A stretch of DNA of 16,704 bases from a virus. Lineage: Duplodnaviria > Heunggongvirae > Uroviricota > Caudoviricetes. The stretch lies in IMG/VR virus record IMGVR_UViG_2541047712_000007; one strand, 5' to 3'. This document shows, one piece after another, positions 4,615-15,474 of the stretch (its first letter is position 1; each line of letters starts with the position of its first letter). The position numbers and the translations under genes were made by a program. A model generated the notes under the pieces. It had not been told where the DNA came from and made no database searches. It worked only from the letters and a program-made list of their open reading frames with translations.

Positions 4615-4903
4615 GCTTATTTTTTCGCCAGATTATTTTTCAAAAAATTACCGTGCATAAAAATTTGGGGAGGCGTTCGGTGCCCGGCGGGGTCGGGTTT
4701 GTCCTGAAAACGCCCCCCACCCCGTCATACAGCCTCATCAGCGATTGCGGAAACATTCCATAACCTCGCAGTCACGGTCGGTTAATCGCTTCGCTGTGAT
4801 GCGTTCTGCGCGTCCTGACGCTTTATCTTTATGCCCTGTTTCTTGTGTCTTCCATGCGTCACGCTGCCTTATAAGTCCACGGATAAGGCGGTTTTGTTCC
4901 CGC
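4615..4903. other. HNH-TerS intergenic region; candidate cos/packaging initiation site
   Basis: A 289-bp non-coding gap between the HNH and TerS genes, the position where HNH-associated cos phages keep cos. It contains an AT-rich tract with tttttcaaaaaa (4621-4660) followed by a GC-rich block ggggaggcgttcggtgcccggcggggtcgggtttgtcctgaaaacgccccccacccc (4667-4724) with an imperfect inverted repeat. Confidence 0.3.
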
Positions 4904-7757: not shown

Positions 7758-7786
7758 AAAACACTAAAGGGGCTTTTAAGCCCCTT
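7757..7786 (-). terminator. Intrinsic terminator or attenuator between the capsid and protease genes
   Basis: Minus-strand hairpin aaggggcttaaaagcccctt (8-bp stem, 7767-7774 pairing with 7779-7786) followed by a U-rich run (uaguguuuua). Confidence 0.5.
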
Positions 7787-7796
7787 CTGTATGCTG

Positions 7797-8954
7797 TTAA
7801 TCGTCGTCCTGTGGCAGTTCCAGAATCTTGATCGCGTTCGAATCCACCACGCCACCGCCTAAATATTTCTGCGTGAAAATTTTGATGAAGCCCGGCTCTG
7901 TGAGGTTGTCCGGTCTGGTGCGAACACCTGTTTCGTGATCAACAATGTAGTAACCGCGTTTGAAGTCACCCAGGGCAATAACGTTATCAGGCATAAACTC
8001 CAGATATTCGACCGGAAGGCCCAGCAACGTATCAGGATCACCCGCCTGTAAACGGTCGCGCCAGATGTAATCACCGTTCGCGTTCTTCACCTTCTGAAGT
8101 TTTGCCGCCGTCGTGGAGTTAACCACCCAGACCGCGTTTTTGCGGTATTTTTTACGTAATGCAAATTTCAGGTCGATCAGCGGGTCCGCAGATGTCCACG
8201 CCAGAGATTCGGAAGGTTTAATTACCTGCAACGTACCAAAATCACGCTCTTTGTCGTTCTTCTCTGCACGGGGTACGGATAAAAAACCTTTTGCTTTTTT
8301 GTCACCGTCGCCCACAACCAGATCGCTTTCTTCGGTTTCCGTGAAGGTGTCGCCAATCTCACCCGTCAGCCATGAAAGGATGTCCACATCGGAAAAATCC
8401 ACGATTTCCTGTGTGGTGCGCGGGTACGCATAGACCGGATACAGCTTAATGCTCACCTCGTTAATCTGCGGGGTGCTGGTCTGTTCGCGTGTCTTACCCT
8501 CTTCACCGTGGTTAACGGTCGCACCGCCAGCGGAAACAAGCTGCTTAAACTCGTTGCTGCTGATTTTCTTCACGGTACAGATGCGGCGCATGGTGGATTC
8601 ATCCGTCAGCATTCGCATGATTTCGGTGTTCAGTTCGGGGATAACGGTATAACCACCATCAGCGGGAACGCCTGTACTTAATGCGCGGGTTTCACCTGTC
8701 AGAATGTAGTTGCGTAGTTCTGCGGGGTCAGTGGTCTGGCTGCTTTTACCTGGCTTGCTGCGCTCTTCGTCTGCAATGGCTTCAAGGCGGGAAATGTCTT
8801 TATCGAGGGATTCAGCTTTAGCGCGTAATTCGTCAAATTTTGCGCCCTCAGCATCGTTAAGACTGCGGTTTTCTTTTTCCGCGTTCTCCAGCATGTCGCG
8901 CATCTGATTTTTAATGGCGGTTTTCTGCTGGCGTAATTCGATTATTCTCGGCAT
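7797..8954 (-). CDS. Major capsid protein, HK97 fold, with N-terminal coiled-coil delta/scaffold-like domain (385 aa from the ATG at 8954)
   Basis: HK97-family capsid-like C-terminal two thirds. The N-terminal roughly 90 aa are charged and heptad-like, and no separate scaffold gene exists. ATG at 8954 with AGGA upstream; the ORF track extends to a GTG at 9002. Confidence 0.92.
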   Translation of the reverse strand: MPRIIELRQQKTAIKNQMRDMLENAEKENRSLNDAEGAKFDELRAKAESLDKDISRLEAIADEERSKPGKSSQTTDPAELRNYILTGETRALSTGVPADGGYTVIPELNTEIMRMLTDESTMRRICTVKKISSNEFKQLVSAGGATVNHGEEGKTREQTSTPQINEVSIKLYPVYAYPRTTQEIVDFSDVDILSWLTGEIGDTFTETEESDLVVGDGDKKAKGFLSVPRAEKNDKERDFGTLQVIKPSESLAWTSADPLIDLKFALRKKYRKNAVWVVNSTTAAKLQKVKNANGDYIWRDRLQAGDPDTLLGLPVEYLEFMPDNVIALGDFKRGYYIVDHETGVRTRPDNLTEPGFIKIFTQKYLGGGVVDSNAIKILELPQDDD

Positions 8955-9210
8955 AAAAAAAGTCCTGGGGTTAAGTAAGGAACTCCAGGACGCGGCAAAC
9001 ACTCAACCGTTTTTCATAAGGAAATCAGTAATCGCACCGATCGTTTTCCCGCCTGGTAATGAATATTGGCGAGCACATTAACAGGCGGGAAAATGGCCCC
9101 AGCGTCCTGGCACCACGGGCGAGAATAATCATGATTCAGGTCGGGTAAAATATGCCGTTCCGGTCAGCGAGCAACGTGGAACAACCACGAACAAATAATT
9201 TACAAAACAT

Positions 9211-9234
9211 GACAAAAAGCCGGATTGCTCCGGC
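9211..9234 (-). terminator. Rho-independent terminator ending the early/replication operon
   Basis: Minus-strand hairpin gccgga-GCAA-tccggc (GNRA loop; 9219-9234) followed by uuuuugucauguuuug, immediately after the stop at 9242. Confidence 0.7.
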
Positions 9235-9241
9235 TGTGTGA

Positions 9242-9514
9242 TTATCTGTCCTGGTAATTTCGCCATATTTCATCGCTTACACCATCTATACCCATTTCAG
9301 CATAAGTGCGATCTACTGCCTTTCTCAGGTCTCCGAAGTTATCCGGCGGCTCCGGTGGCTTCTGTGCCTTCCTGGAACATTCCAGCCGTCGCATCGTAAC
9401 CTGATGCCGTTCCTTGTCTGTCTCCACCAGCAGCATGACTTCACCCCATCGCGCCGACGCCCTCCGGTAAAAGCCTTTCGCCTCGAGTTCTTCCGCTATG
9501 CGGTCATGTACCAT
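9242..9514 (-). CDS. Hypothetical protein (about 91 aa)
   Basis: ORF downstream of ssb. The ATG at 9514 has a GAGGGG Shine-Dalgarno 6 nt upstream; the track ORF extends to 9634 but would overlap ssb. No family recognised. Confidence 0.5.
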   Translation of the reverse strand: MVHDRIAEELEAKGFYRRASARWGEVMLLVETDKERHQVTMRRLECSRKAQKPPEPPDNFGDLRKAVDRTYAEMGIDGVSDEIWRNYQDR

Positions 9515-10498: not shown

Positions 10499-12253
10499 TT
10501 ATAAAAACGCGTCGCACTCGTCTGTTGTTATTGCGTTAGTCTGCGTTACTCCCTTAACTTTCCGCGTAATATATTCATGTCCGTAAACTTTCGCGGCTGG
10601 CTTCATAGCCTTGCCAAAGTCATTTACGTTTAGCGGTTTGCTCCTGCCTGCGTACGCCATAAACGCCAGATAGACGCGGTAAAGACTGTTTCTGGTCGTG
10701 TACTTCACTGAATCGCCACCGCCGCCCATCATCAGGCCGCGTGCTTCCTCCAGAAAATTCAGGAACTGGCAAAACTCAATAACCGGATCCGTCTGTTGCT
10801 TTATTGCCAGAGCTTCATCACCGTCACGCTGTTCCAGTAGTAAAGCCCTCGCCTTCTCAGGGTCGGTAAAGTTCGCCAGCAATCGGCGGATAATGACAGG
10901 GATTTCAGCCGCGATCTTTTCCGGTAGCTCCCTGTCTTTTTCGGCCTCACTGACGATATTGTCGAAACGGAAAATCACGCGACGACGTGCCACACCTCCG
11001 GCCCGTTCGGTGAATATCATCGGGTTATTGTTGGTCGCCAGCACCACCGCCCTGATTACAGCCGTGAAACGCTTTTCGTATTTCGGGTTAATTTCCACGG
11101 GGTCACCGCCCGTGATTTTCTTGATGCCCGTTCCTTCGCCTGTATATTTCGGCTGGTCAGCCAGGACGATAAGACGACTCCCGACAACCTGCGCACGTCC
11201 ACCAGCATCATCAAGCGATGTCATTTCAGCGCTTACCGTGTTCTGTTTCCCTGCCAGAAGGCTGGCTATGTGTGTGAATGTACTTTTACCGCTCCCGCCG
11301 TCTCCGGTGGCCTCAATAAACATCTGCCAGTCGTACCGGTTCGCCATAATCATGTACAGCGCGGCACATATACGCATCATCTTGCGCGGGTCTTTTCCGG
11401 CTGCGTGCTCAAGCCATTTATGAAAGTTTGGCGCGTTATCGCGGATGTTCTCCCCTGGTGCTGGTGGCGTGTACTCAATGCCGTTGTGCGTGGTGATCCA
11501 GTTCTCCGGCGTGTGCGGGGAAAATTCCCCCGTTTTCAGGTCAAGCGCACCATTGGCGAACGGCAGCAAATCGCCGGACGGCTCGCCCATTGGTTCGGCA
11601 ATAACTTTTAACGCTTCCACGGCGTTATTGATTACGCGCTTGCTGAAAGTGGCCCTGTGCTCTGAATAGATCGCCACCATTTCGCGGCTAAGTTCCATTG
11701 TGCTGACCGGACACCATACCCCGCCGCGCCATACGTGAACGATTTCACTTTCAGGATGTACGCAAACGCCATCAAAGCGATCGGCAAGCAGCTGCGCGCG
11801 CTCACTGTCCGCCATCTGCGAAAGTTGCGCCTTTTGCTTTACCGGAAGCTCAATGACCAGACCATCAGAAAGATTCTGGCGCTCACGGGCCAGATATTCG
11901 CGCCAGTTCTCCACCTTCTGACCGTGCATACCCTCAGGATAAAAATTTGCATCCTGTACGCCTGCCGCCGCCAGCTTCTGGCCAATCGCCTTTATCATTA
12001 CTGGCGCAAGATATCCGGCCCTGAATATGCGCACGGATTTTCTGCCTTCCGGCACAATTTGCAGCTTATCCAGTTCTGATAACTGCTGCTCCCCAAGCCA
12101 CACAGGAGGCTCATTATCTCCGGCCATACGCGCATCATGTTCCTGCCATTGTTTCGCGTGTGCCCAGGCATCACTACCCGCAAAAATAATGACTTCTGTT
12201 CCTTTGTGTTTTATGCCGCGTGACTGCTGTTTTACGTTCGGTGCCAGTTTCAT
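10499..12253 (-). CDS. P4-family primase / SF3-type helicase replication protein (584 aa)
   Basis: Walker A motif TGDGGSGKSTF in the C-terminal half, size, and the position upstream of the iteron origin. ATG overlaps the upstream stop (ATGA). Confidence 0.9.
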   Translation of the reverse strand: MKLAPNVKQQSRGIKHKGTEVIIFAGSDAWAHAKQWQEHDARMAGDNEPPVWLGEQQLSELDKLQIVPEGRKSVRIFRAGYLAPVMIKAIGQKLAAAGVQDANFYPEGMHGQKVENWREYLARERQNLSDGLVIELPVKQKAQLSQMADSERAQLLADRFDGVCVHPESEIVHVWRGGVWCPVSTMELSREMVAIYSEHRATFSKRVINNAVEALKVIAEPMGEPSGDLLPFANGALDLKTGEFSPHTPENWITTHNGIEYTPPAPGENIRDNAPNFHKWLEHAAGKDPRKMMRICAALYMIMANRYDWQMFIEATGDGGSGKSTFTHIASLLAGKQNTVSAEMTSLDDAGGRAQVVGSRLIVLADQPKYTGEGTGIKKITGGDPVEINPKYEKRFTAVIRAVVLATNNNPMIFTERAGGVARRRVIFRFDNIVSEAEKDRELPEKIAAEIPVIIRRLLANFTDPEKARALLLEQRDGDEALAIKQQTDPVIEFCQFLNFLEEARGLMMGGGGDSVKYTTRNSLYRVYLAFMAYAGRSKPLNVNDFGKAMKPAAKVYGHEYITRKVKGVTQTNAITTDECDAFL

Positions 12254-12549
12254 TTTTTACCCCTGAATCCTTTAATCATGGTTTTCATCTTCTGAATATT
12301 GGCGCGTGCTTTCTCCCTGCTGGTGGGCACGTTACGCGGTACGGCCTGCACAAGAGAAAAATCACGGTCGAACTGATAAACAGGCATCACGCAATCATAT
12401 TCGTAGCCTTCACGACGGTAGGTTACGCGCCGTTCCTCCACGCCCTTAATCATTACCGTGCCGCCGTACTTATCGCGGTAAATATCACCGCGCATGAATT
12501 TAGTGCGAGTTTTGCCACTGGCAGTTAAGCCAGAATATTTAAGTTTCAT
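12250..12549 (-). CDS. Hypothetical protein (99 aa), basic
   Basis: ATG at 12549 with GGAGAA upstream; translationally coupled to the primase. No family recognised. Confidence 0.6.
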   Translation of the reverse strand: MKLKYSGLTASGKTRTKFMRGDIYRDKYGGTVMIKGVEERRVTYRREGYEYDCVMPVYQFDRDFSLVQAVPRNVPTSREKARANIQKMKTMIKGFRGKK

Positions 12550-13369: not shown

Positions 13370-13586
13370 GGTGCACCTCCTGCACATCAGCCATGATAAT
13401 TTTTCCGGCCTTATCCAGTGCCTGATCGGCTTTTAGCTGCACAAATGCTAAATAATGGAAGATGCATTCTGATTCTCTGGCTGCGTGTTTATGCGCCCTG
13501 TCAGCAATAACAGAAATATCAATAAGCGCGTGCATCAGCGTAGTGAGCGCGGCGGCTGCTGCGTCCGGTGTGGTTTTATTGCACAT
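13362..13586 (-). CDS. Hypothetical protein (74 aa)
   Basis: ATG at 13586 with AGGGGGT Shine-Dalgarno. Confidence 0.5.
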   Translation of the reverse strand: MCNKTTPDAAAAALTTLMHALIDISVIADRAHKHAARESECIFHYLAFVQLKADQALDKAGKIIMADVQEVHHA

Positions 13587-13782
13587 GGCCTACCCCCTGG
13601 CGAATACGGGCAGCGAATACCATCACGCAGCCATCAGGAGATTGCTGACGCGCTTCCTGTTCGCTGGTGGCCTCGATGGTAATCACGCGCGGTTGTGCCG
13701 TGCTCAGGGCGATAAAACGCCAGATGTATTTATTCAGGTCGTGCGAATCCCGCCCTTGCGGGTGTGTGGTATGATTTCTCAT
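13576..13782 (-). CDS. Hypothetical protein (68 aa), first gene of the leftward operon
   Basis: ATG at 13782 with GAGG 5 nt upstream. It is the C-terminal, plausible part of a 430-aa track ORF whose remainder is antisense to plus-strand genes and the operator region. Confidence 0.45.
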   Translation of the reverse strand: MRNHTTHPQGRDSHDLNKYIWRFIALSTAQPRVITIEATSEQEARQQSPDGCVMVFAARIRQGVGHVQ

Positions 13783-13878
13783 AGCTACCTCGATACTTTC
13801 GCTATCGTTGGTGGTTAGAAGCCCGGTTAGTGTTAGCGCACTGCCGGGTTTCGTCGTTTCTGCACCTTGCGCCAACAA

Positions 13879-13931
13879 GGTGTTGAACACCAATTTAAAC
13901 CCAGGTGTTAAACACGTCAAGTGTTGAACAC
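13879..13931. promoter_or_regulatory. Triple palindromic operator in a divergent promoter region
   Basis: Three copies of the palindrome GTGTT-N-AACAC: gtgttgaacac (13880-13890), gtgttaaacac (13905-13915), gtgttgaacac (13921-13931), lying between the leftward operon start (13782) and the plus-strand RHH gene (13982). Confidence 0.7.
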
Positions 13932-13981
13932 TTATTTTTTTTCCTGCATACTGCATTTGTTTTTTATGAGGGGTACACCAC

Positions 13982-14161
13982 ATGGCGACAAAAGCAGTAA
14001 ACGCAAAATCACAAACCGTTGCGGCAAGGGTTCCGCATGAAGTTATGAACAATGTTGAGGCGGTAAAAATGCCTGGCGAAAGTACGGGGCAATTTGTTAC
14101 TGCGGCATTAAAACGAGAAGTTGAATATCGCCAGCGGCGCAAGGCCAAAGAACCAGAGTAA
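13982..14161 (+). CDS. Ribbon-helix-helix (Arc/CopG-like) DNA-binding protein, 59 aa; candidate island repressor
   Basis: ATG at 13982 with GAGGGG Shine-Dalgarno. The translation has an RHH-like beta-strand (QTVAARVPHEV) followed by two helices. Below the ORF-track length cutoff; I translated it directly. Confidence 0.6.
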   Translation: MATKAVNAKSQTVAARVPHEVMNNVEAVKMPGESTGQFVTAALKREVEYRQRRKAKEPE

Positions 14162-14218
14162 TCACCATCAGCGCCGTGGTGTGAGGAACTACGGCGCATT
14201 GCTATGCAGGACAACACA

Positions 14219-14392
14219 ATGACCGATAAAGAATTGACCAAAACATTATCACCGGCACGGAAAAGACGGCGCAGAAAGATAGAGCATGAATCAGAAAGAT
14301 TCGCGCCATGTGCTTTTGCCCTTGAGCAATTCCTTAAAGAGTACAGGGAAAAGCGCTCATTGCAGGTATGGCAACGAACTGAACCAGACTGA
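14219..14392 (+). CDS. Hypothetical small basic protein (about 57 aa)
   Basis: ATG at 14219 with AGGA 7 nt upstream (track ORF starts at 14204). Arg-rich (RKRRRRK); followed by a plus-strand terminator. Confidence 0.3.
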   Translation: MTDKELTKTLSPARKRRRRKIEHESERFAPCAFALEQFLKEYREKRSLQVWQRTEPD

Positions 14393-14470
14393 TTGCATTG
14401 CCCACCAGCCGCAAATGTGGCATTGTTGGCAATGCTCATGCGTTGGGGATAACGTGTAGCTTGTGTCGAG

Positions 14471-14500
14471 GGGCCACCGTAGCGGGTGGCCTTTGTTTTG
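14471..14500 (+). terminator. Rho-independent terminator (plus strand)
   Basis: Hairpin ggccacc-gtagcg-ggtggcc followed by tttgttttg. Confidence 0.6.
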
Positions 14501-14594
14501 CCCGTTATTCGGCAATTGTGGCGCTTCTCCACATGGTTGATATAATCCCACTGCTCAGATTCATTTTTTGCGCAGTAGGTTAATTGTTCACAAA

Positions 14595-14626
14595 GGCGCT
14601 CCGGCAACGGGGCGCTTTTTGTTTTT
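14595..14626 (+). terminator. Rho-independent terminator (plus strand), GNRA loop
   Basis: Hairpin gcgctccg-GCAA-cggggcgc (8 bp including one G-U) followed by tttttgttttt. Confidence 0.6.
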
Positions 14627-14920
14627 ATTAGTTTGTAGAAACCTGACTCAGAGATAATGCTCATATTCTGATTGCCGTCAGGGGTGTAAGTTAAATTTAC
14701 TCCCTTTTTATCATCAAACATCTGCAACGCTCTGGCGTTAGCAATATTGGTTTCACTCCCGCCAGTAAGGCCGGAAATAACCGGAATAATTTCGGCAAAA
14801 TTTTGCAGATTCTGTTTTTCAGGACGAACGAAGCCCCGCCCTTGTTCGGGAGAATATCCAGTATTCATGGTTAGATCTCTGTATTAGTGGATGGGTGGCG
14901 GCTGTGTGCCGCCAGCCTGA

Positions 14921-15195: not shown

Positions 15196-15390
15196 GGCAA
15201 ACACTGGCGGCGGTCGTTTTACAGAAGCAGGGGGAATGAGAATAAAAACTCTTTTAATTCATTATGATGCAAAGGCATAAAATTTTACTTTTACGCCTTT
15301 TTTACATATTTTTAAGAGTGATTCGCCAGTGTATAAAAAAACAGTACACCTATAAAAATCAAATGGTTATTACGATGGCTGATTTTTAAC

Positions 15391-15450
15391 CCGTTGTTCC
15401 ATTTTGTTCCTTGTTGTTCGTCGTTGTGTCTCGTTGTTTCACGTTGTCCG
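15391..15450. repeat. Six tandem 10-bp repeats (NCGTTGTNYC) 3' of int
   Basis: ccgttgttcc / attttgttcc / ttgttgttcg / tcgttgtgtc / tcgttgtttc / acgttgtccg in an exact 10-bp register. Confidence 0.6.
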
Positions 15451-15474
15451 CGTCCTGAAAAATCGCAAAAAAAA

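What the first reader, a model, noticed from the sequence alone, without database searches (positions are those of the whole stretch)
9003..9210. Late-operon control region carrying the TTGTTCC motif directly after a strong terminator
The early operon ends at a GNRA-loop terminator (9211-9234), so the capsid and packaging genes need their own promoter in this 200-bp gap. The gap contains ttgttcgtggttgttccacgttg on the coding strand (9170-9192) and an 8-bp inverted repeat cccgcctg ... caggcggg (9049-9090), consistent with an activator-dependent late promoter.
Basis: partly seen in the sequence, partly recalled or inferred. Interest (0 to 1): 0.55.

Follow-up and report, generated by a model that had tools for sequence, protein, structure and literature searches.

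The report
Satellite capsid-operon promoter and RNA leader
The 287-base gap in front of the capsid gene of this E. coli phage satellite (a close relative of EcCIEDL933) holds a terminator, a conserved promoter preceded by helically phased repeats, and a roughly 160-base folded RNA leader that hides the capsid ribosome-binding site; none of this has been described in the papers I could search.

Summary
All three observed features are real, 1-2 bases off the stated coordinates. The window is a capsid-forming PICI (cf-PICI); its leader is 96% identical to that of EcCIEDL933 and its capsid protein is identical. All genes lie on the minus strand.

The true gap is 8955-9241, because the capsid starts at ATG 8954, not GTG 9002. 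Reading 5' to 3', it holds:
- The early-operon terminator (9235-9214).
- A TTTTGTAAAT box, invariant in position: 86-88 nt upstream of a conserved hairpin in 59/59 relatives.
- Three 10-bp-phased TTGTTC units.
- A sigma-70-type promoter, TTTACC-N16-TATTCT. Its T, A and T positions are invariant in 29 diverged leaders.
- A transcribed leader.

It is not an operator. Covariation supports hairpins P1 and P2. The Shine-Dalgarno sequence is predicted to be fully paired. A 9-nt stretch of P1 can instead pair with the anti-SD strand.

The claim of a separate late promoter behind a terminator is supported. Dependence on an activator, and AlpA as that activator, remain inferences: the repeats do not co-vary with AlpA alleles. 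A helper-phage late activator is probably not needed, since alpA overexpression alone is used to make capsids. No Rfam family matches. No transcription start has been mapped.

The parts
9242..9514 (-). PerC-family gene, last gene of the early (alpA to primase to ssb) operon in this element. It sits in the variable cargo slot.
   Evidence: Pfam PF06069, E = 7e-45. RefSeq annotation of an identical locus. Relatives carry other genes in this slot.
9214..9235 (-). Intrinsic terminator of the early operon: stem AGCCGGA/TCCGGCT, GCAA loop, T5 tract.
   Evidence: -13.2 kcal/mol. Identical in EDL933, Shigella and IMG/VR relatives. Homology between elements with different upstream genes begins right at its 5' edge.
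9198..9207 (-). Conserved upstream box TTTTGTAAAT, about -92 to -83 from the predicted start.
   Evidence: Present in E. coli, Shigella, Citrobacter, Erwinia and Rosenbergiella, and with one change (TGTAATT) in Gilliamella. TGTAAAT starts 86-88 nt before hairpin P1 in 59/59 leaders. 55 of 63 distinct IMG/VR contexts of the 18-mer have P1 at that distance.
9165..9194 (-). Three 10-bp-phased units, TTGTTCgtgg TTGTTCcacg TTGCTCgctg, about -79 to -50.
   Evidence: The third unit is TTGTTC in EDL933. Other lineages have different phased units at the same place (GTAC/TTTAC/TTAC, TGTTTn).
9144..9149 (-). Predicted -35 hexamer TTTACC (16-bp spacer).
   Evidence: TTT invariant and [TA]C[TA] preferred at these positions in 29 leaders below 90% identity. 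The aligned site in sister lineage L014 is called as TTTACA-16-TATGTT by the promoter scan.
9122..9127 (-). Predicted -10 hexamer TATTCT.
   Evidence: In 29 representatives, T, A and the final T are 100% conserved, two further T positions 93%, and the fourth position is free. It always lies exactly 5 nt before P1.
9114..9116 (-). Predicted transcription start, 6-8 nt after the -10 hexamer and at the first bases of P1. Inferred, not mapped.
   Evidence: Geometry. There are no insertions or deletions between the -10 and P1 in any leader.
9093..9116 (-). Leader hairpin P1: GUGGU-G-CCAG-GACG-CUGG-G-GCCAU, at the 5' end of the transcript, with an invariant GACG loop.
   Evidence: -14.3 kcal/mol. 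Three upper-stem pairs differ on both sides between the window type and the main family (UA to CG, CG to AU, AU to GC), and two further pairs in L088. A covariance model built without window-type sequences finds it (20.7 bits, E about 3e-4, best hit in the window).
9045..9092 (-). Leader hairpin P2: 11 bp, a mismatch, 5 bp, and a 14-nt loop.
   Evidence: -24 kcal/mol. In the main family 7 of 9 P2 pairs change on both sides while keeping pairing.
9023..9042 (-). Small hairpin GAUCGGUG-CGAU-UACUGAUU, a possible remnant of the main-family P3 stem.
   Evidence: Minimum-free-energy fold. The homology is only suggested by position.
9002..9016 (-). Four-codon mini-ORF AUG AAA AAC GGU UGA with no Shine-Dalgarno sequence, probably a relic of the ancestral capsid start. 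In the predicted fold it pairs with the U-tract and AUG of the real start.
   Evidence: The covariance model aligns it to the capsid start codon of the main family. Fold.
9102..9110 (-). CCAGGACGC (P1 5' arm plus loop): a copy of the SD context CCAGGAC, and the 5' partner of the alternative long-range helix.
   Evidence: It and its exact complement each occur once in the window. Inverted repeat I6. Forcing this helix costs only 4.7 kcal/mol relative to the minimum free energy.
8985..8993 (-). GCGUCCUGG: the anti-SD strand, which can pair either with the SD region or with 9110-9102.
   Evidence: The equivalent helix in the main family (AGACGUGA with UCACGUCU) is 97.7% paired with one compensatory change.
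8962..8991 (-). SD-sequestering hairpin GUCCUGGAGUU...AACCCCAGGAC. The SD AGGA is at 8966-8963.
   Evidence: -14.1 kcal/mol. Probability that the SD is unpaired is about 0 in the ensemble. Natural variants keep the pairing: C to U giving G-U in L020 and L026, and A-C becoming A-U in L026.
8952..8954 (-). Capsid start codon ATG. The protein is identical to the EcCIEDL933 major capsid protein WP_001137345.1.

Best explanation
The gap 8955-9241 is the control region of the packaging (late) operon of a capsid-forming PICI.

Proposed mechanism:
1. Early transcripts stop at the terminator at 9235-9214.
2. Late transcripts start at a sigma-70 promoter of the element's own (-35 TTTACC 9149-9144, -10 TATTCT 9127-9122, start about 9116-9114).
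3. Upstream of this promoter, at a fixed distance, lie the TTTTGTAAAT box and three TTGTTC units spaced one helical turn apart, about -92 to -50. The most likely reading is that a protein bound along one face of this array helps RNA polymerase. In this element the leading candidate is the Xis-like winged-helix protein AlpA, but a host factor or intrinsic DNA bending is nearly as likely.
4. The mRNA begins with a 5'-terminal hairpin (P1), followed by a long hairpin (P2). It ends in a hairpin that buries the capsid Shine-Dalgarno sequence, so the leader is expected to stabilise the message and keep capsid translation low by default.
5. Translation would open when the P1 segment CCAGGACGC, a copy of the SD context, pairs with the anti-SD strand GCGUCCUGG.

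Status of each step:
- Shown by sequence and comparison: the terminator, the phased array at fixed distance, the -35/-10 conservation pattern, the P1/P2 covariation, and the predicted SD sequestration.
- Inferred: the transcription start, activation, the identity of the binder, and what triggers the RNA switch.
For: - Identity: a cf-PICI. The leader is 96.2% identical to that of EDL933 and the capsid protein is identical.
- Terminator. Module homology starts at its 5' edge. In lineages that lack an upstream terminator, a covarying hairpin plus T-run sits between the repeats and the -10.
- Promoter: invariant TTT in the -35, and T, A and the last T invariant in the -10, across 29 leaders below 90% identity, while flanking positions are near random. 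The aligned site in L014 is scored 9/12 by the scan.
- Geometry: box to P1 is 86-88 nt in 59/59 leaders and 55/55. The -10 to P1 gap is constant.
- Separability: the promoter module is retained in relatives whose leader lacks P1-P3.
- Phased repeats: 10 matches against 1.9 expected, 0/200 shuffles.
- RNA: z-scores of -4.8 and -4.4. 94.5% of cells paired against 37-48% in slid controls, 9 pairs with changes on both sides, 0/500 shuffles. Three further compensatory pairs in P1 between leader types. The covariance model hits once per element, always just upstream of the capsid gene, and hits the window at 9116-9006.
- SD pairing and the alternative helix.
- Literature: alpA is required for induction (10.1101/2022.09.08.507074). 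An alpA-overexpressing strain is used to produce EcCIEDL933 capsids, and capsids form without a helper phage (10.1101/2025.02.11.637232). AlpA activates PICI genes (PMC6092414).
Against: - No 5' end has been mapped. I found no transcript data for this locus.
- The window promoter matches only 8/12 consensus positions and was not called by the scan.
- In the terminator-internal lineages the -35 is merely a T-run (TTTTCT).
- The repeat type does not co-vary with the AlpA allele. Elements with non-TTGTTC leaders show no matching arrays near alpA.
- TTGTTC arrays outside the leader are commoner in elements with TTGTTC leaders (10/15 against 7/31), but those lineages are not independent.
- P3 and the long-range helix are almost invariant, so covariation cannot test them.
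- In the main family the long-range helix overlaps only two pairs of the SD stem, so the switch logic is clear only in the window type.
- A sequestered ribosome-binding site is odd for a protein needed in hundreds of copies.
Confidence: 0.6

Rival explanations
1. There is no independent late promoter. The capsid operon is transcribed by read-through of the 9235-9214 terminator from the AlpA-driven early promoter, for example by polymerase made terminator-resistant. The conserved leader elements act only on that long transcript.
For: All genes from int to terL share one orientation. AlpA alone switches the whole cycle on (PMC6092414; 10.1101/2025.02.11.637232). A Pseudomonas protein also named AlpA is a Q-like antiterminator (PMC7969949).
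Against: A terminator is conserved with covariation in front of the capsid gene in most lineages. The -35/-10 pattern is conserved at fixed distance from P1. The Pseudomonas AlpA-RNA polymerase cryo-EM structures are published (PMC9371919), yet no such chain appears among the PDB matches of the window AlpA at E <= 1; only 8c3t does. No Q-like gene is annotated in the island.
Confidence: 0.15
2. The late promoter exists but needs no specific activator. The phased T-rich units and the box form an intrinsically bent or host-factor-bound upstream element. For example, the 15-mer GTAAATTATTTGTTC has the G-N13-C, AT-rich-centre shape of a Fis site, and TGTTyN-N4-TGTTyA resembles sites of winged-helix response regulators. 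Late expression then rises mainly through template amplification after AlpA-induced replication.
For: The repeats do not track AlpA alleles. The G and C of the 15-mer and the TGT periodicity are kept across lineages with different unit sequences. The sister lineage has a respectable core promoter. The window promoter has a 16-bp spacer and a GC-rich discriminator, CGCCCGT, as growth-rate-regulated promoters do (own knowledge). Capsids are reported to appear spontaneously without a helper phage (10.1101/2025.02.11.637232).
Against: The motif resemblances come from memory and were not scored. The strict invariance of TGTAAAT and the fixed 86-88 nt spacing suggest a specific protein contact rather than bending alone. 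TTGTTC arrays recur near alpA and at the island end in the same element.
Confidence: 0.3
3. The real start is at the TGTAAAT box, using TAAATT as the -10 (the same hexamer as lambda PR') with a start near 9190. The downstream 'promoter' is an RNA-level or pause element. The hairpin plus T-run seen in other lineages is a regulated attenuator of the Q or attenuation type.
For: The box is the best-conserved DNA element. In many lineages a terminator-like hairpin lies 45-70 nt downstream of it, as in promoter-proximal attenuators.
Against: No -35 is conserved upstream of the box in any lineage. The last T of TAAATT varies (TAAATA, TAAATG, TAATTA). The window and its E. coli sister lineage have no terminator after the box. 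The invariant T-A-n-n-n-T pattern sits at the downstream site.
Confidence: 0.1
4. The conserved DNA is a packaging (cos/pac) or replication site rather than an expression signal.
For: Phased direct repeats and conserved inverted repeats are typical of terminase-binding or initiator-binding sites.
Against: A virion-derived cf-PICI record starts 22 nt before terS and has this leader in its interior. Compensatory changes in P1 and P2 point to strand pairing, and the structure ends at the ribosome-binding site. The usual PICI origin position is downstream of the primase gene (own knowledge).
Confidence: 0.03

Closest known systems
Late promoters of satellite phage P4 (Psid, PLL), regulated by the AlpA homologue Vis and by P2 Cox or Ogr/Delta
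   Same: Both are satellite elements. A small Xis-like winged-helix protein acts both in excision and at late, capsid-related promoters. Such proteins bind direct repeats spaced about one helical turn apart (own knowledge; Vis is called the AlpA homologue of P4 in PMC6092414).
   Different: The TGT-N12-ACA motif of Ogr/Delta-dependent promoters is absent. The repeat sequence differs. Binding of AlpA here is untested and is not supported by co-variation. P4 has no structured capsid leader of this type, as far as I know.
Lambda PR'-qut-tR' (Q-dependent late antitermination)
   Same: A late-operon entry point with a terminator nearby. TAAATT occurs in the box. In some lineages a terminator lies just downstream of the box.
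   Different: No Q gene, no conserved -35 for the box, no -10-like pause element right after it, and in the window the terminator is upstream of the box.
HK022 put RNA (cis-acting antiterminator RNA)
   Same: Two stem-loops at the very 5' end of a long phage-type operon, a few bases apart, in a module derived from HK97/HK022-like phages (PMC9378689 for put architecture).
   Different: P1 plus P2 is about 72 nt in the window and up to about 95 nt in relatives, against about 70 nt for put. There is no sequence or covariance-model similarity: the best hit in the HK022 PL/PR region is 3.3 bits. Antitermination activity is untested.
5'-terminal stem-loop mRNA stabilisers (ompA type) and RBS-sequestering leaders with an anti-anti-SD element
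   Same: A hairpin that starts at the first transcribed bases. The SD is buried in a local hairpin. An upstream copy of the SD context can displace it.
   Different: No trigger (ligand, protein, sRNA, temperature or uORF translation) is identified. P1 and its partner are conserved in sequence far beyond what stability alone requires.

Membership tests
Intrinsic (Rho-independent) terminator | G+C-rich stem, short loop, and a run of U immediately 3' of the stem | tested here: met
   7-bp stem (5 G-C), GCAA loop, T5 tract. -13.2 kcal/mol.
Intrinsic (Rho-independent) terminator | Termination of transcripts in vivo or in vitro | not testable with these tools
   No transcript data available.
Sigma-70 promoter | -35 and -10 hexamers with a 16-18 bp spacer, and T-12, A-11 and T-7 conserved | tested here: met
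   TTTACC-16-TATTCT, 8/12 matches. TTT, T, A and the final T are invariant in 29 diverged leaders. The aligned L014 site is called at 9/12. The window site falls below the scan threshold.
Sigma-70 promoter | A primary transcript 5' end 6-8 nt downstream of the -10 | not testable with these tools
   Needs 5'-RACE or dRNA-seq.
Activator-dependent promoter with phased upstream sites (Xis/Cox/Vis/AlpA type) | At least three direct repeats at about 10-11 bp spacing, upstream of the core promoter at a fixed distance | tested here: met
Activator-dependent promoter with phased upstream sites (Xis/Cox/Vis/AlpA type) | Repeats co-vary with the cognate DNA-binding protein, and the same repeats occur at its other targets | tested here: inconclusive
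   The same array occurs with at least five AlpA alleles, and similar alleles occur with different arrays. TTGTTC arrays do recur near alpA and at the island end in this element and in 10/15 elements with a TTGTTC leader.
Ogr/Delta-dependent P2/P4 late promoter | TGT-N12-ACA dyad centred near -55 | tested here: not met
   Read from the sequence: TGT at 9204-9202 is followed after 12 nt by CGT, and there is no ACA dyad.
Q-type antitermination site | A Q gene, a promoter-proximal -10-like pause element, and a downstream terminator | tested here: not met
   No Q-like gene is annotated. In the window the terminator is upstream of the box.
HK022 put RNA | Sequence and structure homology to putL/putR | tested here: not met
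   The leader covariance model scores at most 3.3 bits over HK022 27000-30500.
Any Rfam 15 family | A score at or above the gathering threshold | tested here: not met
   Searches returned only chance-level hits.
Structured cis-regulatory leader that sequesters the RBS | Conserved helices with compensatory changes | tested here: met
   P1 and P2. P3 and the long-range helix are too invariant to test.
Structured cis-regulatory leader that sequesters the RBS | SD paired in the dominant fold, with a competing alternative helix | tested here: met
   Probability that the SD is unpaired is about 0. The alternative fold is +4.7 kcal/mol. These are predictions only.
cos/pac packaging site | Coincides with the ends of virion DNA | tested here: not met
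   The linear virion-derived record LR881103.1 begins 22 nt before terS, and the leader lies at 12059-12292 of that record.

The most novel reading that the evidence does not exclude
The cf-PICI capsid leader (P1, variable P2, and an invariant P1-loop partner next to the ribosome-binding site) is a new class of regulatory RNA switch. It would gate capsid translation, or transcript survival, in response to a specific signal such as an island, host or helper factor. In that way it would time or limit production of the satellite's own tail-less capsids.
Probability: 0.25. Interest if true: 0.7.

Novelty: new member of a known kind. Interest (0 to 1): 0.45.

Why it matters
Capsid-forming PICIs make their own DNA-filled, tail-less capsids and borrow tails from phages of several species. 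How and when they switch on the packaging operon has not been described in the papers I could search; none of them discusses a promoter, terminator or leader for this operon.

This analysis gives testable coordinates in the prototype EcCIEDL933, which carries the same elements:
- a terminator that insulates the late genes
- a promoter with an unusually rigid upstream geometry
- a conserved leader RNA that should hold capsid translation down

If the leader is a real switch, it is a handle on why capsids appear spontaneously without a helper phage, and a way to tune or block satellite spread. If not, the region is an ordinary late promoter with a stabilising 5' hairpin.

Tried and rejected
1. 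Leader peptide. ATGs at 9210 and 9132 open 24- and 35-codon frames without an SD sequence. The conserved CATG near the -10 is absent in L075, L087, L088 and L095. Rejected.

2. Antisense gene (plus-strand ORF 8914-9081). It is incompatible with the covariation and the sequence turnover of P2. Rejected.

3. cos site. Rejected by the ends of record LR881103.1.

4. Known RNA family. Three Rfam searches were negative.

5. put-like RNA. No model hit in HK022.

6. Homology of the island AlpA to the Pseudomonas antiterminator AlpA. No such chain is among the PDB matches at E <= 1; only 8c3t, an 'AlpA family phage regulatory protein', is found.

7. AlpA allele against repeat type. No co-variation.

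8. GTAAA repeats upstream of alpA as a second copy of the box. They are present only in the window-type module.

9. PerC, or the conserved 80-aa upstream ORF, as an obligatory late activator. PerC is missing in L014 and L016. The 80-aa ORF is missing in the window.

10. The 11-nt complement between 9130-9120 and capsid codons 2-5. Natural variants are not compensated, so it is probably chance.

11. Presence of the leader in true phages. Only three hits in 50,697 records: one is a cf-PICI deposited as a phage, and the other two were not examined.

12. The box in other contexts. The 8 of 63 contexts without P1 are unrelated AT-rich phage DNA.

Full report
**What the window is.** All genes of interest lie on the minus strand: int (16704-15475), an AlpA-family gene (15109-14921; Pfam PF05930), a primase, ssb, a PerC-family gene (9514-9242), then capsid, protease, portal, connectors, HNH, terS and terL. 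The 401 bases around the finding occur in 440 of 5,426 complete E. coli genomes. The leader is 96.2% identical to that of E. coli O157:H7 EDL933 (H42). There the downstream capsid protein has the same accession as in the 100%-identical locus. The window is therefore a capsid-forming PICI (cf-PICI) very close to the prototype EcCIEDL933 (10.1101/2022.09.08.507074).

**Checking the observation.** The terminator, the TTGTTC string and the inverted repeat are all present, 1-2 bases from the stated coordinates.
- The lone heptamer TTGTTCC is not enriched: 5 matches against 2.9 expected.
- The phased form TTGTTC-N4-TTGTTC is enriched: 10 against 1.9 expected, 0/200 shuffles.
- The '8-bp' inverted repeat is the core of 18-nt arms.
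The gap is therefore 8955-9241.

**Comparative material.** I collected capsid-upstream regions from several sources:
- Shigella, Rosenbergiella, Citrobacter, Erwinia and Gilliamella
- three other E. coli cf-PICI lineages
- 80 IMG/VR contigs, fetched with short and then long flanks
- EDL933

A blastn search in E. coli genomes had already shown that about 80 records share only the first 60 bases after the terminator with the window, with unrelated sequence downstream. That pointed to a separable upstream module.

**DNA-level architecture.**
- A box, TTTTGTAAAT, opens the region in the Enterobacterales relatives, with one change in Gilliamella.
- TGTAAAT starts 86, 87 or 88 nt before a conserved hairpin (P1) in 59 of 59 leaders. 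In an independent pattern scan, 55 of 63 distinct contexts of the 18-mer have P1 at that distance. The other 8 are unrelated AT-rich phage DNA.
- After the box come three units spaced 10 bp apart. They read TTGTTC in the E. coli lineages, and GTAC/TTTAC/TTAC or TGTTTn elsewhere. A variable segment of fixed length follows.
- I aligned 29 leaders that are below 90% identical on the first base of P1. TTT is invariant at -33 to -31. T, A and T are invariant at -11, -10 and -6, with T at 93% at -9 and -7 and a free base at -8. Neighbouring positions carry almost no information.
- This is the signature of a sigma-70 promoter, TTTAC[AT]-N16-TATnTT, with a start 6-8 nt later at the first bases of P1.
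- In the window the hexamers are TTTACC (9149-9144) and TATTCT (9127-9122). At 8/12 matches this is just below the scan threshold. The aligned site in sister lineage L014 is called as TTTACA-16-TATGTT.
- Relatives with a short, unstructured leader keep the box, units and T-run. The promoter module and the RNA leader are therefore separable.

**Insulation from the early operon.** In the window type and its E. coli sister lineage a terminator lies just upstream of the box. Sequence homology between elements with different upstream genes begins exactly at the terminator. In most other lineages the upstream gene runs straight into the box. There, a hairpin followed by a T-run sits between the third unit and the -10, and its T-run occupies the -35 position. 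Its stems differ in sequence but keep pairing. A terminator in front of the capsid gene is thus selected in most lineages examined. This argues against simple read-through and for a late promoter of the element's own.

**Who binds the array?** The literature held here says three things. AlpA is required for induction and activates PICI genes (PMC6092414; 10.1101/2022.09.08.507074). A strain overexpressing alpA is used to produce EcCIEDL933 capsids. Tail-less capsids form without a helper phage (10.1101/2025.02.11.637232). A helper late activator is therefore probably not needed.

- In favour of AlpA: the window has six phased TTGTTC units between int and alpA (15394-15449) and three near the island's right end (1610-1585). 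This is the distribution expected for an Xis-like protein that also regulates promoters, as P4 Vis and P2 Cox do (own knowledge). Extra TTGTTC arrays are also commoner in elements with TTGTTC-type leaders (10/15 against 7/31; lineages not independent).
- Against AlpA: the same leader array occurs with at least five very different AlpA alleles, and near-identical alleles occur with different arrays. Elements with other leader types show no matching arrays near alpA.
- The leader clearly travels with the packaging module, not with int-alpA.
- PerC and a conserved 80-aa ORF that usually sits just upstream are each absent from some elements with this array.

I therefore regard 'an activator binds here' as likely, given the fixed-distance, fixed-phase geometry. 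I regard 'it is AlpA' as a weak lead, at about one in three. A host factor or intrinsic bending is the main alternative. The Pseudomonas antiterminator also named AlpA (PMC7969949) has published cryo-EM structures with RNA polymerase (PMC9371919). No such chain appears among the PDB matches of the island protein; only 8c3t does.

**The transcribed leader.** From the predicted start to the ATG the window RNA is 162 nt. It folds far better than shuffles (-66.4 kcal/mol, z = -4.8), as does a main-family leader (z = -4.4).
- P1 (9116-9093) has an invariant GACG loop. Its upper stem is CCAG/CUGG in the window type and CUCA/UGAG in the main family, which gives three pairs changed on both sides. L088 adds two more.
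It is replaced by unrelated sequences that keep a 9-12-bp stem, and 7 of 9 pairs covary.
- Over P1, P2 and P3, 94.5% of cells are paired against 37-48% when partners are slid. There are 61 double-change cells, and 0 of 500 shuffles reach the observed score.
- A covariance model built without any window-type sequence finds one hit per element, always abutting the capsid start. Its best hit in the window is 9116-9006 (20.7 bits, E about 3e-4).
- Rfam has no matching family. The model does not hit the HK022 put region. True phages lack the leader.

**Ribosome-binding site.** In the window the SD (AGGA, 8966-8963) lies in the hairpin 8991-8962. The U-tract and AUG pair with the mini-ORF segment AUGAAAAA. 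The SD is unpaired with probability about 0. The 9-mer CCAGGACGC in P1 (9110-9102) repeats the SD context. It is exactly complementary to the anti-SD strand GCGUCCUGG (8993-8985), and each occurs once in the window. Forcing that helix frees the SD at a cost of 4.7 kcal/mol. In the main family the P1 loop and 3' arm (AGACGUGA) match UCACGUCU in the loop of the stem that holds the SD-like GGAA. That helix is 97.7% paired, with one compensatory change (U-A to G-C) in L088. The register differs between the two leader types, but in both the GACG loop pairs with CGUC near the ribosome-binding site. I take that as the best sign that the contact matters. What triggers it is unknown. The constant 5-nt gap between the -10 and P1 also fits a 5'-terminal stabilising hairpin (own knowledge of ompA-type stabilisers).

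**Other readings.** A cos or pac site is excluded: the linear virion-derived record LR881103.1 starts 22 nt before terS and has the leader at 12059-12292. A promoter at the box itself lacks any conserved -35, and its last hexamer base varies. Leader peptides and an antisense ORF do not survive comparison.

**Verdict.** The finding is real and its central idea holds: a separate late promoter behind a terminator. The motif is part of a phased upstream array, and the inverted repeat belongs to a conserved leader RNA. The region is a new, well-defined example of a known kind of control region. Its most interesting part is the undescribed structured leader. Nothing here is proven at the transcript level.

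Noticed in passing
window 15390-15455 (between the int stop and alpA) and 1585-1610 (island right end): Arrays of six and three 10-bp-phased TTGTTC units. They are in the opposite orientation upstream of alpA and in the same orientation as the leader at the right end. Related elements have such arrays at both ends and next to alpA (L097: 577, 2551, 15426). They are likely binding arrays for AlpA/Xis or for the arm-binding domain of Int.
   Followed up: partly
window 7766-7787, minus strand: Strong hairpin GAAGGGGCU-UAAA-AGCCCCUUU directly after the capsid stop codon, followed by AGUGUUUUAU. It is a possible partial terminator or 3' stabiliser that would raise capsid mRNA relative to downstream genes.
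   Followed up: no
window 9120-9130 and 8940-8950: An 11-nt perfect complement between the -10 region (upstream of the predicted start) and capsid codons 2-5. Only read-through transcripts would contain both. Natural variants (L017, L002) break it without compensation, so it is probably chance.
   Followed up: partly
window 9002-9016, minus strand: Mini-ORF ATG AAA AAC GGT TGA. The covariance model aligns it to the capsid start codon of the main leader family. The window-type leader seems to have gained about 60 nt, with a new SD hairpin, downstream of an ancestral start.
   Followed up: partly
window 13576-14868, minus strand: A 430-aa ORF just downstream of alpA with no Pfam match. The otherwise near-identical locus L001 has Icd-like and YlcI-like genes here instead. 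It is possibly cargo or a defence gene in the variable slot after alpA.
   Followed up: no
L014 2730-2978, L177 2271-2495, and many IMG/VR loci: A conserved ORF of about 74-82 aa, without annotation, usually lies 9-64 nt upstream of the box (also in EDL933). It is absent from the window, where perC abuts the terminator. Some elements carry 0.4-1.7 kb of cargo between it and the leader.
   Followed up: partly
window about 4618-4741 (gap between the small ORF after HNH and terS): Probable cos region. The linear virion-derived cf-PICI record LR881103.1 begins 22 nt before terS and ends 37 nt after the small ORF.
   Followed up: partly
L141 787-1038, L155 2181-2415, L147 2768-2913: The int-alpA intergenic regions of other cf-PICIs carry several different tandem arrays of 10-bp period: GCATTCAACA up to 9 times, GACACGTAAT 3 times, GCACCTAACA 3 times, GGTTCATCAC 4-5 times.
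   Followed up: no
L006, L066, L070, L089, L096 (Gilliamella-type loci): The capsid leaders here lack P1-P3 but contain a different long-range stem (GTTAGACTGC...GCAGTCTA). This is possibly an analogous but unrelated structured leader.
   Followed up: no
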